UHGV virus genome: UHGV-0046269
Reading direction: 5' to 3' (one strand)
Origin: a virus
Length of the DNA: 22,539 bases
Both the position numbers and the translations under genes were made by a program. A model generated the notes under the pieces. That model had not been told where the DNA came from, ran no database searches, and saw nothing but the letters and a program-made list of their open reading frames with translations. Positions 4,549 through 15,105 of this stretch are shown here, piece after piece. How positions within the stretch are numbered: position 1 is the stretch's first letter; the number at the start of each line of letters is the position of its first letter.

Positions 4549-4606
4549 AAAAAGGGCGGCAGAGCAGTCACGGAGTAAAACTGATACCGCCAAACGTCAC
4601 CAGAAA
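4549..4606 (-). ncRNA. dicF: DicF small RNA (antisense regulator of ftsZ and other mRNAs) with intrinsic terminator
   Basis: Reverse complement of 4554..4606 reads TTTCTGGTGACGTTTGGCGGTATCAGTTTTACTCCGTGACTGCTCTGCCGCCC, which matches the DicF sequence as I recall it, followed by a T-tract (4549..4553). Located between ydfC and dicB as in Qin. Confidence 0.85.
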
Positions 4607-7226: not shown

Positions 7227-8297
7227 ATGGCTAACGCCTGGCTCAGATTATGGCATGACATGCCAAATGACCCTAAGTGGCGAACAATTGCCAGGGTGTC
7301 AGGGCAGCCAATTGCAACAGTGATGGCAGTGTATATCCACCTCCTGGTGAGCGCGTCACGAAATGTCACGCGAGGTCACATTGATGTCACGACAGAAGAT
7401 TTGGCAAGTGCGCTCGACGTGACAGAAGAGGTAATTGATTCAATTTTGCAGACGATGCAGGGGCGGGTACTTGATGGTGATTTAATCACTGGATGGGAAA
7501 AACGCCAGGTGCTGAAAGAGGACAACGGCAATATTTCGCAAACCGCAAAATCTCCGGCAGAGCGCAAGAGGGCGCAGCGAGAGAGGGAAAGAAAGCGGGA
7601 ACAAAATGGCGATTGTCACGGCGAGTCACGAAATGTCACGCACATGTCACGACGAGTCACGACAGATAAAGATACAGATAAAGATACAGATCAAGAAGAT
7701 CAAAACACTATGGTCCATGGCGTAAAAAACGCCACGAACCAGGCAGGGGATGTTCAGACCGTCACTCCTGGCCAGCCCGCAGGCACGACACCGGAAGCCG
7801 ATTCAGCGTATGCGCTGAAAGCCGATTCGGGCGCTGTGCAGCAGGTGATGACCGCAAGGCAGGAGCAATCACACCAACTTCAGCAGCCTGAAGCCGATTC
7901 CGCCATTCAGCGGGAAGCCGATCGGGTAGTCCCGGAAAACACCGGGCAGCCTGTGGGACGAGTGGATTATCCTGATGTGTTCGAACAGGTCTGGCGGGAA
8001 TACCCGTTGCGTGCCGGGGCAAACCCGAAGAAATCCGCTTTCAGTGCCTGGAAAGCCAGATTACGCGAGGGGGTGCCACCAGAGGCCATGCTGGATGGCG
8101 TGAGGCGTTACGCAAGATACCTTGCGGCTACCGGGAAAACGGGAACGGAATTTGTTCAGCGAGCGACGACGTTTTTTGGACCGGACCGGAATTTTGAAAA
8201 CCCCTGGCTGCTCCCGGTAAGCGGCACGAACAACCAGCGTTGTGTGAATCATATTTCTGAACCGGATAACGAAATTCCGCCGGGCTTCAGGGGGTAA
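7227..8297 (+). CDS. Phage replication initiation / replisome organizer protein (O-like) containing iteron-like repeats
   Basis: 356 aa from the ATG at 7227 (RBS GAAGAGG upstream); N-terminus MANAWLRLWHDMPNDPKWRTIARVSG is typical of phage replisome-organizer N-terminal domains; the coding sequence contains two GTCACG repeat clusters and an AT-rich tandem repeat. Confidence 0.75.
   Translation: MANAWLRLWHDMPNDPKWRTIARVSGQPIATVMAVYIHLLVSASRNVTRGHIDVTTEDLASALDVTEEVIDSILQTMQGRVLDGDLITGWEKRQVLKEDNGNISQTAKSPAERKRAQRERERKREQNGDCHGESRNVTHMSRRVTTDKDTDKDTDQEDQNTMVHGVKNATNQAGDVQTVTPGQPAGTTPEADSAYALKADSGAVQQVMTARQEQSHQLQQPEADSAIQREADRVVPENTGQPVGRVDYPDVFEQVWREYPLRAGANPKKSAFSAWKARLREGVPPEAMLDGVRRYARYLAATGKTGTEFVQRATTFFGPDRNFENPWLLPVSGTNNQRCVNHISEPDNEIPPGFRG
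7351..7395. repeat. Iteron-like repeat cluster 1 (GTCACG units) inside the replication gene
   Basis: GCGCGTCACGAAATGTCACGCGAGGTCACATTGATGTCACGACAG carries four GTCAC(G/A) units; the 16-mer TCACGAAATGTCACGC recurs in cluster 2. Confidence 0.6.
7613..7710. repeat. Iteron-like repeat cluster 2 plus adjacent AT-rich tandem repeat (candidate replication origin)
   Basis: TTGTCACGGCGAGTCACGAAATGTCACGCACATGTCACGACGAGTCACGACAG (five GTCACG units) followed by GATAAAGATACAGATAAAGATACAGATCAAGAAGATCAA. Resembles the iterons plus AT-rich arrangement of lambda ori inside O. Confidence 0.6.
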
Positions 8298-10214: not shown

Positions 10215-10394
10215 ATGAAAAACGCATTGCAGTTTTTGTTTGTTGCGTTCTGGTTGTTCGTATCATGTATGCCCATCATCTTCACAGCAAGGTATATGGA
10301 AAAAGTTGATGTTTTGATATTAATATTTGGATATATAAATGCCCTTTTTTTAGGGGTGTTCATGGCGGTCATGTGCATTGAATACTGGCGGTAA
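10215..10394 (+). CDS. Small hydrophobic membrane protein (two predicted TM segments)
   Basis: 59 aa from MKNALQFLFVAFWLFVSCMPIIF...LFLGVFMAVMCIEYWR, preceded by an AGGAGG RBS; strongly hydrophobic. Confidence 0.45.
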   Translation: MKNALQFLFVAFWLFVSCMPIIFTARYMEKVDVLILIFGYINALFLGVFMAVMCIEYWR

Positions 10395-10652
10395 ATACAG
10401 CGAACGCCATTGGTTTAGTTGGATATTTACTGTGCCGGACAAAAACGGTTTGCGGGGAAATCTTAGTTAAGTAGAATGACTGCGGGTGCTTGAGGCTATC
10501 TGTCTCAGGCATGAACACCAAAAGGCAGATAGAGAAAAGCCCCAGTTAACATTACGCGTCCTGCAAGACGCTTAACATTAATCTGAGGCCATATCTATGC
10601 GACACATAGAGATTAGCCTCTTACGGACCGAAAGGTCAAGGAGAAGCAGGCT

Positions 10653-10808
10653 ATGAAGCAGCAAAAGGCGATGTTAATCGCCCTGATCGTCATCTGTTTA
10701 ACCGTCATAGTGACGGCACTGGTAACGAGGAAAGACCTCTGCGAGGTACGAATCCGAACCGGCCAGACGGAGGTCGCTGTCTTCACAGCTTACGAACCTG
10801 AGGAGTAA
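10653..10808 (+). CDS. hokD: Hok/Gef-family type I toxin (HokD/RelF-like)
   Basis: Hand translation MKQQKAMLIALIVICLTVIVTALVTRKDLCEVRIRTGQTEVAVFTAYEPEE (51 aa) fits the Hok/Gef family. A short upstream ORF (10597..10656) ends with TGA overlapping the hok ATG (mok-like coupling). Confidence 0.85.
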   Translation: MKQQKAMLIALIVICLTVIVTALVTRKDLCEVRIRTGQTEVAVFTAYEPEE

Positions 10809-10876
10809 GAGACCTGGCGGGGGAGAAATCCCTCGCCACCTCTGATGTGTCAGGCATCCTCAATGCACCCGCACTT

Positions 10877-10901
10877 AACCCGCTTCGGCGGGTTTATTTT
10901 A
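10877..10901 (+). terminator. Intrinsic terminator / 3' hairpin of the hok transcript
   Basis: AACCCGC-TTCG-GCGGGTT hairpin followed by TATTTTAT, about 70 nt downstream of the hok stop. Confidence 0.6.
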
Positions 10902-11266
10902 TCTGTAAATATTTTTATAAAAATAATGCCCACACACAGCATAAAACAAAAAGTATCACAGATAAAAAAGGAGCGTAATGTGCAGATTTGTTGTTTTCCA
11001 TATTTACTCACTTTAACATAATCAATATTGATATGGTTGTTGTTTCGGTGGTTTCAAACGAGATGTTATGGTGATCTGGTAAAATTGCATAACATTAAAA
11101 TTTAATTTATCTAATCGCTTTTAATAATAAGCGTTGTGTTTATCCCAACAATCTGTTGTTTGACTTTTATTCCATTAATGTAGGGGCTTTACACTGGAAC
11201 CAGTTTATTTATACTTTATACGCCAGCCTGAACAACTGGCACCTGCTGCGCCAGCAGAGACAACCG

Positions 11267-12979: not shown

Positions 12980-13801
12980 ATGAAACTGGAAGATTTACCG
13001 AAATACTACTCCCCAAAATCCCCTGGCCTGACCGATGCATCGGCCTCAACGTCAAAAGATGCGCTGAGTATCACTGATGTGATGGCCGCGCAGGGCATGA
13101 CACAGAATCGGGCTGAGATGGGTTTTTCTGCGTTCCTGGGGAAAATGGGCATCAGTATGAATGACAGGGCGCGGGCAACAGAATTACTGGCAGATTATGC
13201 ACTCAGTCGGTGCGATCGTGTGGCGGCGTTGAGAAAACTTCCGGCAGAAATAAAACCGGTAGTGATGCGCATTATGGCTTCGTACGCTTTTGAGGATTAT
13301 GCCCGCAGCGCAGCGAGTAAAAAGCAGTGCCCTTGTTGCTATGGGGAAAAATTTATTGAAAGCGTAGTTTTTACAAACAAGGTCCAGTATCCGGATGGTA
13401 AGCCGCCGGTATGGGCAAAGTGTACGAAAGGTGTGTATCCGTCTTACTGGGAAGAATGGAAAAAAGTCAGGGAGGTGGTAAAAGTTGCCTGTCCGGAGTG
13501 TGGCGGAAAGGGTGAGGTTTCCACCGCCTGTAAGGATTGCCGTGGGCGTGGTGTCGCCATTCACCGTGAAGAGTCGGTAAAACGTGGTATGCCTGTTATC
13601 AGAGACTGCCAGCGTTGTGGTGGTCGTGGCTATGAAAGACTACCATCAACGGAGGTATTTAATGCTATATGCGAGGTGACAAACCAGATAACACGCGCGT
13701 CATGGGAAAAAACAGTTAAGAAATTCTATGATGCGCTGGTGACCCGGTTTGATATTGAAGAAGCATGGGCTGAGCGGCAGTTAAAAAAGGTAACTAGGTA
13801 A
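12980..13801 (+). CDS. Late-gene antiterminator Q-like protein (QuuQ-like) with multiple CxxC zinc-finger motifs
   Basis: 273 aa; position between rusA and the tRNA/lysis region is the canonical Q slot; contains CPCC, CPECGGKG, CKDCRGRG and CQRCGGRG motifs. Confidence 0.65.
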   Translation: MKLEDLPKYYSPKSPGLTDASASTSKDALSITDVMAAQGMTQNRAEMGFSAFLGKMGISMNDRARATELLADYALSRCDRVAALRKLPAEIKPVVMRIMASYAFEDYARSAASKKQCPCCYGEKFIESVVFTNKVQYPDGKPPVWAKCTKGVYPSYWEEWKKVREVVKVACPECGGKGEVSTACKDCRGRGVAIHREESVKRGMPVIRDCQRCGGRGYERLPSTEVFNAICEVTNQITRASWEKTVKKFYDALVTRFDIEEAWAERQLKKVTR

Positions 13802-13944
13802 CAAGGTTGATTTTTCCGGAATCTGTGGTAAATTCGTCATAACGATGGGCTTTTTATGCCTGACGTTAGAAGAGTTTCTACAACCCGCCGCCGAGCGGGT
13901 TTTTTATTGCGGAATTAATTACGGACCGTTATTATTCTGCTCCC

Positions 13945-14020
13945 GGCCCTTTAGCTCAGTGGTGAGAGCGAGCGACTCATAATCGCCAGGTCGCTGGTTC
14001 AAATCCAGCAAGGGCCACCA
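13945..14020 (+). tRNA. ileZ: tRNA-Ile2 (anticodon CAU, ileX/ileZ-like)
   Basis: 76 nt cloverleaf: acceptor GGCCCTT/AAGGGCC, D-arm GCTC...GAGC, anticodon loop CTCATAA, T-arm GCTGG-TTCAAAT-CCAGC, 3' ACCA. Close to E. coli tRNA-Ile2 as I recall it. Confidence 0.88.
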
Positions 14021-14027
14021 TCACATA

Positions 14028-14104
14028 CCGCCATTAGCTCATCAGGAAAGAGCGCCAGCTTTCGAAGCTGGTTGCGCGGAGTTCGGGTCCCCGATGGTGG
14101 TCCA
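14028..14104 (+). tRNA. argN: tRNA-Arg (anticodon UCG), argN-like
   Basis: 77 nt: acceptor CCGCCAT/ATGGTGG (one G-U), D-arm GCTC...GAGC, anticodon stem CCAGC/GCTGG with loop TTTCGAA (anticodon TCG), T-arm CGGAG-TTCGGGT-CCCCG with one A-C mismatch, 3' TCCA. Confidence 0.6.
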
Positions 14105-14117
14105 TTATCGGTATTCT

Positions 14118-14194
14118 GCGTTGTTAGCTCAGCAGGACAGAGCAATTGCCTTCTAAGCAATCGGTCAGTGGTTCGAATCCAGTACAACGCGCCA
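14118..14194 (+). tRNA. argO: tRNA-Arg (anticodon UCU), argO/argU-like
   Basis: 77 nt: acceptor GCGTTGT/ACAACGC, anticodon loop CTTCTAA (TCT), T-loop GGTTCGAATCC, 3' GCCA. Confidence 0.88.
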
Positions 14195-14658: not shown

Positions 14659-15052
14659 ATACATATCTGGATTATCACCTGTTACGGTAAAAAGTGATTG
14701 CTTACTGTTTTTGTGAATGGCATTGCAGCAGCCGGATAATGTCAGTGCTGGCTGACGGTGTGCTGGTGGCAGGTGTGGTGGTTGTTGCTTTTCCGTTGCT
14801 GAAAAAGAAAACGCCAGACTGTTAGCCGGGTATCAGTTAGCGGGAGAAATTTTTAAATACTTCACAATTCAGGCGGTTGACTGTTGTCTGGTTTGCGGGG
14901 AGTTTGTTAAAAGAAACTGGCATGGTGAATCCCCCTGTGCGGAGGGGCAATCAGCGAGTAGGTATATGGGATAATCGCGGATTCAGGTGCTGGTACTGAA
15001 TTCACCGGGAGGCACCCGGCACCATGCAATGGCACATAGCGCCACTCTCCAA

Positions 15053-15078
15053 CCCCTCTCCGGAGGGGCTGTTTATAT
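15053..15078 (+). terminator. GC-rich hairpin followed by T-rich tract (possible intrinsic terminator)
   Basis: CCCCTC-TCCG-GAGGGG followed by CTGTTTATATTGATTTT; a related hairpin CCCCT-GTGCGG-AGGGG lies about 115 bp upstream (14934..14949). Confidence 0.35.
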
Positions 15079-15105
15079 TGATTTTGTCAGATGTGAGTAA
15101 ACTCC

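What the first reader, a model, noticed from the sequence alone, without database searches (positions are those of the whole stretch)
10560..10905. hok-like type I toxin locus with mok-like overlapping leader ORF and 3' hairpin
A 51-aa Hok/Gef-family toxin is preceded by a short ORF whose stop overlaps the hok ATG (ATGA) and followed by a stable hairpin terminator. A Sok-like antisense RNA is expected on the minus strand across the leader (roughly 10560..10640), but I could not delimit it by eye.
Basis: partly seen in the sequence, partly recalled or inferred. Interest (0 to 1): 0.45.

Follow-up and report, generated by a model that had tools for sequence, protein, structure and literature searches.

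The report
Prophage hok/sok toxin-antitoxin locus (hokD type)

Summary
Window 10653-10808 encodes a 51-aa Hok/Gef toxin (Pfam PF01848, E 1e-23). It is identical to E. coli K-12 HokD/RelF and 100% identical at DNA level to the annotated hokD of CFT073-type strains. A 19-codon ORF (10597-10656) ends in a UGA that overlaps the hok AUG. A terminator hairpin lies at 10877-10894.

The locus is larger than reported. The hok mRNA most likely starts at 10484, 76 nt upstream of the reported start. Its 5' end pairs with a 3' element at 10858-10870, the tac/fbi hallmark of hok mRNAs.

By homology to the annotated, experimentally validated sokW of phage 933W/Sp5, the Sok RNA maps to 10603->10535 on the minus strand. 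Its promoter is TTGACC-18-TAATCT at 10639->10610. It has a 13-14 nt 5' tail, a long hairpin and a U-tail.

Unlike K-12 hokD, which lost everything upstream of the hok SD, this copy keeps all regulatory parts.

One mildly unusual feature is the leader ORF frame. Most identical-Hok loci have it in frame with hok, and R1/Rac have a long out-of-frame mok. Here it stops exactly on the hok start. That is compatible with published evidence that mok needs translating only up to the hok initiation region.

Verdict: already known; low interest.

The parts
10450..10477 (+). Predicted hok mRNA promoter: -35 TTGCGG (10450-10455), 16-nt spacer, -10 TAGAAT (10472-10477)
   Evidence: Relaxed hexamer scan. The -10 TAGAAT is conserved in nearly all of 69 distinct related loci, while sequence upstream of -35 diverges into mosaic groups. 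It aligns with TATGAT of the R1-type locus. The strict consensus scan did not call it. Transcription was not tested.
10484..10899 (+). Predicted full-length hok mRNA (about 416 nt), from GGGUGCUUGAGG to the terminator U-run
   Evidence: The Rfam RF01794 match starts at 10484. The terminator is at 10877-10894. MFE is -173.1 kcal/mol, z = -8.15. The ends are inferred by homology, not mapped.
10484..10495 (+). tac-like 5' element GGGUGCUUGAGG. It pairs with the 3' fbi-like element in the full-length RNA. It refolds into a local 5' hairpin (about 10484-10519) when the 3' end is removed in silico.
   Evidence: The MFE of the full-length RNA pairs nt 1-12 with 10858-10870. With the RNA truncated at 10856, the 5' end forms a local hairpin with GUCUCAGGCAU. 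The element is invariant in 46 distinct leaders and occurs once in the window.
10538..10590 (.). Long hairpin present in both strands: the target-region hairpin in the hok leader and the body/terminator hairpin of Sok. It is 16 nt longer than the Rfam consensus.
   Evidence: Folds. The Rfam alignment shows a 16-nt insertion in this stem-loop. The stem is identical to 933W sokW, with a single difference in the loop. A few compensatory changes occur in a short-hairpin subtype.
10535..10603 (-). Predicted Sok antisense RNA (69 nt): GUCGCAUAGAUAUGGCCUCAGAUUAAUGUUAAGCGUCUUGCAGGACGCGUAAUGUUAACUGGGGCUUUU. It has a 13-14 nt single-stranded 5' tail, a long hairpin and a U-tail. The 3' end could run to about 10527.
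   Evidence: Coordinates transferred from the annotated sokW misc_RNA of phage 933W (AF125520). Fold is -32.2 kcal/mol, z = -6.19. sokW RNA was detected by northern blot and shown to be antitoxic in Sp5 (PMC8621323). It was not measured for this allele.
10610..10639 (-). Predicted sok promoter: -35 TTGACC (10639->10634), 18-nt spacer, -10 TAATCT (10615->10610). The TSS falls 7 nt downstream at 10603.
   Evidence: Relaxed scan. It is positionally homologous to R1 TTGCGC-17-TATCCT and 933W TTGCCT-17-TAACCT (alignments). The strict scan found nothing.
10585..10588 (+). Shine-Dalgarno GAGG of the leader (mok-like) ORF, 8 nt before its ATG. It lies inside the Sok-complementary region.
   Evidence: Read from the sequence. 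Invariant in 46 distinct leaders.
10597..10656 (+). mok-like leader ORF of 19 codons (MRHIEISLLRTERSRRSRL). Its UGA overlaps the hok AUG (AUGA). It is translated through the paired hok SD region.
   Evidence: The ATG aligns with annotated mokW and mok starts. The same arrangement occurs in 11 of 80 identical-Hok IMG/VR loci. The 86-nt region is >=99% identical in 777 E. coli records.
10590..10609 (.). Hypervariable patch around the invariant leader ATG. It forms the mok-start hairpin in the mRNA and is the complement of the Sok 5' tail.
   Evidence: Mean pairwise difference is 0.26-0.32 per column here, against about 0.03 in the rest of the leader, among 42 distinct leaders. Variants are listed.
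10614..10650 (+). Conserved AGCCUCUUAC box, GAAA-tetraloop hairpin and hok SD (GGAG 10640-10643). In the consensus fold the box pairs with the segment from the hok SD to the hok AUG, sequestering the hok initiation region.
   Evidence: RNAalifold consensus pairs at columns 152-160 with 177-187. The small hairpin GACC-GAAA-GGUC covaries with UGCC-GAAA-GGCA (933W) and GCGC-UUU-GCGC (R1).
10653..10808 (+). hok (hokD-type) toxin gene, 51 aa
   Evidence: PF01848 E 1.2e-23. Identical to K-12 HokD. Annotated hokD in CFT073 and others. 46/51 identical to HokW. 42% identical to R1 Hok.
10815..10838 (+). 3'-UTR hairpin (10 bp, GAAA loop) between the hok stop and the fbi-like element
   Evidence: MFE structure. 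Conserved in relatives.
10858..10870 (+). fbi-like element CCUCAAUGCACCC, complementary to the mRNA 5' end (6 + 6 bp with one bulged nucleotide)
   Evidence: Pairs with 10484-10495 in the MFE. Conserved in nearly all of the 69 distinct loci as CCTCAA[C/T]GCACCC (three have one further substitution), and the common C/T variable base is the bulge.
10877..10900 (+). Intrinsic terminator of hok mRNA: AACCCGC-UUCG-GCGGGUU followed by UAUUUU
   Evidence: Terminator scan. Conserved in K-12 hokD and most relatives.

Best explanation
The locus at about 10450-10900 is a complete hok/sok-family type I toxin-antitoxin cassette of the hokD/hokW subgroup. It sits in the early/nin-like region of a lambdoid prophage integrated next to potABCD, between the replication genes and the DUF968-RusA-Q genes.

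Proposed mechanism, taken from the R1 and hokW paradigms and mapped onto this sequence:
1. A stable, about 416-nt hok mRNA (10484-10899) is made constitutively. It is translationally inert because its 5' end (tac, 10484-10495) pairs with a 3' element (fbi, 10858-10870).
2. Slow 3' trimming removes fbi. The 5' end then snaps into a local hairpin, and the leader exposes the SD and AUG of a 19-codon leader ORF (10597-10656).
3. Ribosomes translating that ORF melt the stem that sequesters the hok SD and start codon. They terminate on the UGA overlapping the hok AUG, which allows Hok synthesis by coupling or reinitiation.
4. An unstable, about 69-nt antisense Sok RNA (10603->10535) is made from a promoter inside the leader ORF. 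Its single-stranded 5' tail pairs with the leader ORF's start region. This blocks leader translation, and so hok translation, and marks the duplex for RNase III.
5. When Sok synthesis stops (prophage loss, prophage induction, or transcription shut-off), the stored mRNA yields Hok. Hok inserts into the inner membrane and kills or lyses the cell.

Shown here: homology and presence of every sequence element, and the predicted folds. Inferred: transcription, 3' processing, coupling, toxicity in this host, and biological role.
For: - Toxin: PF01848 E 1.2e-23 and PHROG 251. The protein is identical to K-12 HokD. HokD was used as a toxic positive control in the Hok survey preprint.
- Leader: the full-length RF01794 match at 10484-10655 scores 106.7 bits against a gathering score of 59.
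- End-pairing: tac and fbi pair in the MFE, z = -8.15. Truncation refolds the 5' end into a hairpin. Both elements are conserved across 69 distinct loci.
- Leader ORF start: it is homologous to annotated mokW and mok starts.
- Sequestered hok TIR: present in the consensus fold.
- Sok: the promoter TTGACC-18-TAATCT is positionally homologous to the R1 and 933W sok promoters. The predicted RNA is identical to annotated 933W sokW in the hairpin stem (one difference in the loop) and U-tail. It folds as 5' tail plus hairpin, z = -6.19.
- Experimental support from a 91%-identical locus: hokW-sokW of Sp5 behaves as a type I TA. sokW RNA (71 nt) and hokW mRNA were detected by northern blot, and sok promoter mutations unmask toxicity (PMC8621323).
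- Short leader ORF is sufficient in principle: in R1, mok must be translated only up to the hok initiation region, and 19 mok codons lie upstream of hok (PMC9841398).
- Prevalence: the locus is 100% identical over 551 nt in CFT073 and many B2 strains, where it is annotated hokD. The leader-ORF region is >=99% identical in 777 E. coli records, which argues against a private decay mutation.
Against: - No expression data exist for this allele.
- The strict sigma-70 scan found no promoter on either strand. Both promoters are called only by relaxed matching plus homology.
[quoted passage not shown] Sequence integrity therefore does not guarantee activity.
- The leader ORF differs in frame from the majority arrangement, which is in frame with hok in 66 of 80 loci. 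Coupling through an AUGA overlap has not been tested for any hok locus that I found.
- The ucb/dcb elements of the R1 folding pathway were not delineated here.
Confidence: 0.9

Rival explanations
1. The locus is a structurally intact but functionally silent relic, like the K-12 chromosomal hok loci. Hok is never produced at killing levels from the native locus, and the cassette is simply carried along with the prophage.
For: - The literature summarised in the Hok survey preprint reports that native chromosomal hokA, hokB and hokC loci neither mediated post-segregational killing nor responded to rifampicin.
- K-12 hokD itself is a truncated copy without leader, mok or sok.
- Relative to its closest relatives, the leader ORF here has a 2-nt deletion and a 1-nt insertion that change its frame.
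Against: - Every regulatory element is present and conserved.
- The same leader is found in 777 E. coli records and 11 of 80 IMG/VR prophage contigs.
- The 91%-identical hokW-sokW is active in its native prophage (PMC8621323).
- The toxin protein is unchanged.
Confidence: 0.12
2. The 19-codon ORF is not a functional mok equivalent. The frame change has uncoupled hok from leader translation. Hok is then either translated directly from its own SD (with Sok acting only through RNase III cleavage or mRNA decay) or not translated at all.
For: - The frame differs from both the majority in-frame arrangement and the R1/Rac-type long overlapping mok.
- The peptide sequence is not conserved.
- hok has its own reasonable SD, GGAG, 9 nt upstream.
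Against: - The leader ATG and its SD are invariant, although the flanking bases are the most variable in the locus. This indicates selection on initiation itself.
- The ORF still runs across the whole stem that sequesters the hok initiation region and ends exactly on the hok AUG.
- In R1, stops placed after the hok start do not affect hok translation, and only translation up to the hok TIR is needed (PMC9841398).
- Frame drift through all three frames among >90%-identical loci fits a model in which translation matters and the peptide does not.
Confidence: 0.1
3. Same molecular mechanism, but the biological role is not prophage stabilisation. The cassette instead assists host lysis and phage release on induction, as proposed for hokW-sokW, or acts as an abortive-infection defence against other phages.
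For: - In Sp5, sokW RNA disappears after mitomycin C treatment, HokW appears in a RecA-dependent way, and deleting the locus halves phage release (PMC8621323).
- R1 hok/sok was reported to protect against T4, although a 2026 note re-evaluates this (title).
Against: - Nothing in the sequence distinguishes between these roles.
- The locus here lies in the early/nin region rather than at the position it occupies in 933W.
- It was not established whether this prophage is inducible.
Confidence: 0.4

Closest known systems
hokW/mokW/sokW of Stx2 phages 933W and Sp5 (VT2-Sakai), GenBank AF125520; functionally characterised in PMC8621323
   Same: - 91% DNA identity over about 440 nt.
- Same promoter positions, tac/fbi elements, long Sok hairpin (one loop base differs) and U-tail.
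- Hok is 46/51 identical.
- Also carried by a lambdoid prophage.
   Different: - mokW is in frame with hokW (57 nt from ATG to ATG), giving a 70-aa extended Hok. Here the distance is 56 nt and the leader ORF stops on the hok AUG.
- The Sok 5' tail differs: GUCGCAUAGAUAUG here against GUUCAGCAUGGAUUGA.
- The Hok C-terminus differs: FTAYEPEE here against FVDYESEK.
- 933W lacks the same terminator sequence.
- The position within the prophage differs.
hokD (relF) of E. coli K-12, Qin prophage, downstream of relBE
   Same: - Identical 51-aa protein.
- Near-identical DNA from the hok SD through the 3' UTR, fbi-like element and terminator.
- Same downstream neighbours of DUF968/YdfU type and a Q antiterminator.
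   Different: In K-12, homology begins only at CAGGAGAAGCAGGCTATG. The promoter, tac, Sok target, mok start and sok gene are replaced by the end of relE. The window carries the intact ancestral-type cassette and no relBE.
hok/sok (parB) of plasmid R1 and IncF plasmids
   Same: - Same architecture and order of elements.
- Conserved GG-GCUUGAGGCU 5' end, AGCCUCUUAC box, CAAGGAGAAG-AGGC-AUGAA hok initiation region and sok promoter position.
- 19 mok codons lie upstream of hok in both.
   Different: - Hok is only 42% identical.
- R1 mok continues for about 70 codons across hok in another frame.
- The Sok hairpin is shorter in R1 (16-nt insertion here).
- R1 has an extra about 15-nt segment in the 5' hairpin region.
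- Plasmid context rather than prophage.
mok/hok of Escherichia phage Rac from strain 442/2 (MN652886)
   Same: About 95% DNA identity, with the same leader and the same rem-like downstream gene.
   Different: The ATG-to-ATG distance is 58 nt, so mok is a 68-aa ORF overlapping hok out of frame, as in R1.

Membership tests
[quoted passage not shown] | Small (about 50 aa) Hok/Gef-family membrane toxin | tested here: met
   PF01848 at 82.9 bits against a cut-off of 22. PHROG 251. Identical to K-12 HokD. The NCBIfam Hok subfamily model scored below its cut-off (48.5 against 73), because that model is built on R1-like Hok.
[quoted passage not shown] | Conserved structured hok mRNA leader (Rfam RF01794 region) | tested here: met
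   Full-length match at 10484-10655, 106.7 bits against a gathering score of 59, E 1e-23. The model matches the hok-sense strand.
[quoted passage not shown] | 5'-3' end pairing (tac/fbi) that closes the full-length mRNA | tested here: met
   12 bp between 10484-10495 and 10858-10870 in the MFE, z = -8.15. Both elements are conserved in relatives. This is an in silico result only.
[quoted passage not shown] | Leader ORF (mok) with its own SD, starting inside the Sok target and read across the hok initiation region | tested here: met
   ORF 10597-10656 with SD at 10585-10588. Its start is homologous to annotated mokW and mok starts. It is a variant: it ends on the hok AUG instead of overlapping hok extensively.
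[quoted passage not shown] | cis-encoded antisense Sok RNA: promoter within the leader, single-stranded 5' tail, terminator hairpin | tested here: met
   Promoter TTGACC-18-TAATCT. The fold shows a tail, a hairpin and a U-tail, z = -6.19. The hairpin is near-identical to annotated sokW. Met at sequence level only.
[quoted passage not shown] | Sok and hok transcripts are actually made; Sok is unstable and hok mRNA is stable and 3'-processed | not testable with these tools
   Needs northern blot, RACE or a rifampicin chase. Shown only for the 91%-identical hokW-sokW.
[quoted passage not shown] | Translational coupling of hok to the leader ORF, and toxicity relieved by Sok | not testable with these tools
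   Inferred from R1 mutagenesis and the hokW-sokW assays.
hokD/hokW prophage subgroup | More than 90% DNA identity across leader, CDS and 3' UTR to hokW (933W) and hokD, with lambdoid prophage context | tested here: met
   91-97% identity to 102 phage records. 100% identity to CFT073 hokD in a prophage carrying integrase, DicF/dicB, RusA, Q, holin and terminase.

The most novel reading that the evidence does not exclude
The 20-nt patch around the leader ATG (10590-10609), which is the complement of the Sok 5' tail, may act as a specificity code. It varies about ten times more than the rest of the cassette, while the ATG and SD stay fixed. It could sort the many co-resident prophage hok/sok copies in E. 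coli into groups that do not cross-react. Indels generated by this diversification would push the leader ORF through all three frames, which is tolerated because only translation up to the hok start matters. On this reading, the window allele is a natural termination-reinitiation (AUGA) variant of mok-hok coupling.
Probability: 0.45. Interest if true: 0.3.

Novelty: already known. Interest (0 to 1): 0.1.

Why it matters
This finding adds little. Its practical value is in annotation. RefSeq annotates only the hokD CDS here, so the coordinates for the Sok RNA, the leader ORF, the promoters and the tac/fbi elements fill that gap. They also mark this copy as the intact counterpart of the truncated K-12 hokD.

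The comparison across relatives offers a small natural experiment. The leader ORF occurs in three different frames, and there is a hypervariable Sok-tail patch. Both are consistent with the published conclusion that mok translation matters and the Mok peptide does not.

Tried and rejected
- **Strict promoter scan.** The strict sigma-70 consensus scan over 10350-11000 returned no promoter on either strand. Promoters were therefore assigned by a relaxed scan combined with positional homology to the R1 and 933W loci. They remain predictions.
- **Rfam strand.** The Rfam 'sok' hit is on the + strand and ends on the hok AUG. I considered whether this meant a sense-strand sRNA and rejected the idea. 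The model spans the hok leader, which is the strand it was built on. The true Sok is the reverse complement of part of it.
- **Covariation.** An RNAalifold run on 46 distinct leaders gave only 4 pairs with double changes and a covariation term of -0.62 kcal/mol. The relatives are too close for this to be a strong structural test, so I rely on the Rfam model score instead.
- **ucb/dcb and U-turn motif.** I did not delineate the ucb/dcb boxes or a YUNR U-turn motif in the target loop.
- **Second hok copy.** A search for a second hok locus in the window, using the tac motif, found only a 2-mismatch chance hit at 7465.
- **Flanking ORFs.** Pfam, PHROG and NCBIfam searches of the flanking small ORFs gave nothing for the 59-aa upstream ORF.
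- **Searches not run.** The large protein-database, structure-prediction and metagenome searches were not used, because the identity of the locus was already unambiguous.

Full report
**Observation**

The region was read directly and its ORFs were listed. A 51-aa ORF at 10653-10808 (+) encodes MKQQKAMLIALIVICLTVIVTALVTRKDLCEVRIRTGQTEVAVFTAYEPEE.
- It matches Pfam HOK_GEF (PF01848) at E 1.2e-23, 82.9 bits against a cut-off of 22.
- It matches PHROG 251 'MokW-like host killing' at E 2.8e-33.

Immediately upstream, ATG 10597 opens a 19-codon frame (MRHIEISLLRTERSRRSRL) whose TGA at 10654-10656 overlaps the hok ATG as ATGA. This ORF is preceded by GAGG at 10585-10588.

The only terminator-like site in 10350-11000 is AACCCGC-TTCG-GCGGGTT at 10877-10894, followed by a T run.

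**Identity and context**

The 551-nt stretch 10400-10950 is 100% identical to E. coli CFT073, clone D i2/i14 and many other strains. In all of them the CDS is annotated hokD, and 4939 of 5426 complete E. coli genomes have some match.

In CFT073 the locus lies in a lambdoid prophage integrated beside potC/potD. That prophage carries:
- integrase, excisionase, exonuclease, dicB and ydfABC;
- a repressor/cro-like pair and replication genes;
- hokD, followed by DUF968, RusA and a Q antiterminator;
- tRNAs, holin, lysozyme and terminase.

Rfam also finds DicF, STnc100 and three tRNAs in the window.

The protein is identical to K-12 HokD (RelF). In K-12, however, DNA homology starts only at CAGGAGAAGCAGGCTATG, just upstream of the hok SD. 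Everything further upstream is the end of relE. The window therefore holds the intact form of a cassette that K-12 carries in truncated form.

**The locus is larger than the reported interval**

The Rfam model RF01794 ('sok antitoxin, CssrC') matches 10484-10655 on the + strand from its first to its last position, at 106.7 bits (gathering score 59, E 1e-23). The match ends on the hok AUG and begins at GGGUGCUUGAGGCU, the conserved 5' end of hok mRNAs. The model therefore describes the hok leader in sense orientation.

A -10 TAGAAT (10472-10477) with -35 TTGCGG (10450-10455) sits at the right distance for a start at about 10484. The -10 and the +1 region are conserved in nearly all of 69 distinct related loci, while sequence upstream of -35 breaks into unrelated mosaic groups. 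This marks the left edge of the module.

Folding 10484-10899 gives -173.1 kcal/mol, z = -8.15. The first 12 nt pair with CCUCAAUGCACCC at 10858-10870. This is the tac/fbi end-pairing that characterises hok mRNAs; the element names come from the R1 literature and are my own knowledge. The common variable base of the fbi-like element among relatives (C or T) is the bulged one.

Removing the 3' end in silico (10484-10856) makes the 5' end refold into a local hairpin. This is the kind of rearrangement described for R1.

**Sok**

Phage 933W (AF125520) is 91% identical over the locus and has annotated mokW, hokW and a 71-nt sokW misc_RNA. Transferring those coordinates through a pairwise alignment puts Sok at 10603->10535 on the minus strand. 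It is 69 nt: GUCGCAUAGAUAUGGCCUCAGAUUAAUGUUAAGCGUCUUGCAGGACGCGUAAUGUUAACUGGGGCUUUU.

A relaxed hexamer scan independently finds TTGACC (10639->10634), an 18-nt spacer and TAATCT (10615->10610). This places the start 7 nt downstream at 10603. These hexamers align with TTGCCT-17-TAACCT in 933W and TTGCGC-17-TATCCT in the R1-type locus.

The RNA folds as a 13-14 nt free 5' tail, a long hairpin and a U-tail, at -32.2 kcal/mol and z = -6.19. The stem is identical to sokW; the only difference within the hairpin is one base in the loop, and the 5' tail differs.

It misses the 3' arm and the tail.

For the 91%-identical Sp5 locus (PMC8621323):
- sokW RNA and hokW mRNA were detected by northern blot;
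- HokW was toxic;
- sok promoter mutations unmasked toxicity, and sokW supplied in trans partly rescued it.

**The leader ORF**

Its ATG aligns with the annotated mokW start (933W), the mok start (phage Rac from strain 442/2) and the R1-type mok start. The frame differs between these loci:

| Locus | ATG-to-ATG distance | Consequence |
|---|---|---|
| Window | 56 nt | Leader ORF stops on the hok AUG |
| 933W and most relatives | 57 nt | Upstream ATG is in frame with hok (70-aa 'MokW' = 19 aa + Hok) |
| Rac | 58 nt | R1-like 68-aa out-of-frame mok |

Among 80 IMG/VR contigs encoding the identical Hok, 66 are in frame, 11 have the window arrangement and 3 lack the leader. The 86-nt stretch around the leader ORF is >=99% identical in 777 E. 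coli records. This is therefore a common allele, not a private lesion.

In the consensus fold, the conserved AGCCUCUU box pairs with the segment between the hok SD and the hok AUG. A ribosome reading the 19 codons would melt exactly that stem and then terminate on the hok start.

Saturation mutagenesis of R1 hok/sok concluded that mok must be translated up to the hok initiation region and not beyond. It also noted that 19 mok codons precede hok (PMC9841398). I infer that coupling is retained here, probably by termination-reinitiation. This has not been shown.

**Variation**

Among 42 distinct leaders of the long-hairpin type, mean pairwise difference per column is about 0.03 across most of the leader. 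It is 0.26-0.32 in 10590-10609, while the ATG and SD are invariant. This patch is the mok-start hairpin in the mRNA and the complement of the Sok 5' tail.

Published work cited (Thisted et al. 1994) assigns initial Sok-hok recognition to that tail. The pattern would fit diversification of antitoxin specificity among co-resident copies; Faridani et al. count 5 hok genes in CFT073 and 13 in O157. This is inference only.

**Comparison with known systems and verdict**

The locus meets every family criterion that can be tested on sequence: toxin family, leader RNA model, end-pairing, leader ORF with SD, and antisense promoter plus hairpin. It belongs to the hokD/hokW prophage subgroup. Transcription, processing, coupling, toxicity in situ and biological role could not be tested.

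Possible roles are prophage stabilisation, lysis assistance (as proposed for hokW-sokW) or phage defence. These remain open.

The main caveat is that earlier work found native chromosomal hokA, hokB and hokC loci inactive in killing assays (summarised).

The finding is correct but ordinary. hokD is already annotated at this position, CFT073's hok loci were counted in 2006, and a closely related prophage allele has been characterised experimentally. Novelty: already known. Interest: low.

Noticed in passing
window 10597-10656; L004:456-668; L005:438-644; IMG/VR loci L007-L086: The leader (mok) ORF occupies all three frames relative to hok among loci that are more than 90% identical. It is in frame with hok in 66 of 80 identical-Hok contigs and in 933W. 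It is a long out-of-frame ORF in phage Rac 442/2. It stops on the hok AUG in the window and in 11 of 80 contigs.
   Followed up: yes
window 10590-10609: A hypervariable patch surrounds the invariant leader ATG and corresponds to the complement of the Sok 5' tail. Per-column pairwise difference is 0.26-0.32 here, against about 0.03 in the rest of the leader. It may determine Sok specificity.
   Followed up: partly
window 10215-10394 (+): A 59-aa ORF, MKNALQFLFVAFWLFVSCMPIIFTARYMEKVDVLILIFGYINALFLGVFMAVMCIEYWR, has two hydrophobic segments and an AGGAGG Shine-Dalgarno. It ends 56 nt before the hok promoter -35. It is conserved at 91-100% aa identity in 15 of 80 IMG/VR loci and is present in CFT073, but it is not annotated there. 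It has no Pfam, PHROG or NCBIfam match.
   Followed up: partly
window 10484-10655 (+): Rfam RF01794, named 'sok antitoxin', matches the hok-sense strand and ends on the hok AUG. It models the hok leader rather than the antisense RNA, so strand calls taken from this family would put Sok on the wrong strand.
   Followed up: yes
window 4554-4605 (-), 14891-15080 (+), 13945-14191 (+): DicF sRNA (76.7 bits), STnc100 sRNA (125.9 bits) and three tRNA genes are typical lambdoid prophage cargo. They confirm the Qin/Rac-like prophage context.
   Followed up: no
window 10791-10793 (Tyr47 codon TAC in GCTTACGAAC): The Tyr codon near the Hok C-terminus sits in a TACG context. According to the Hok survey preprint, hokC, hokD and hokE mRNAs undergo TadA A-to-I editing that recodes this Tyr to Cys. 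The motif is present here. Local structure was not examined.
   Followed up: no
window about 13300-13900, compared with L001:14653-15111: The offset between window and CFT073 coordinates changes by about 711 nt between hokD and the tRNA cluster. This matches the IS200C copy annotated in CFT073, so the window appears to come from a close relative that lacks this insertion.
   Followed up: no
L024, L037, L065 (IMG/VR): A subtype with the identical Hok protein has a much shorter, unrelated Sok/target hairpin (CCCCACCCGACTATAAATCGAAGTGAGGCC) and lacks one base of the AGCCTCTTAC box. The antisense hairpin module appears to be exchangeable.
   Followed up: no
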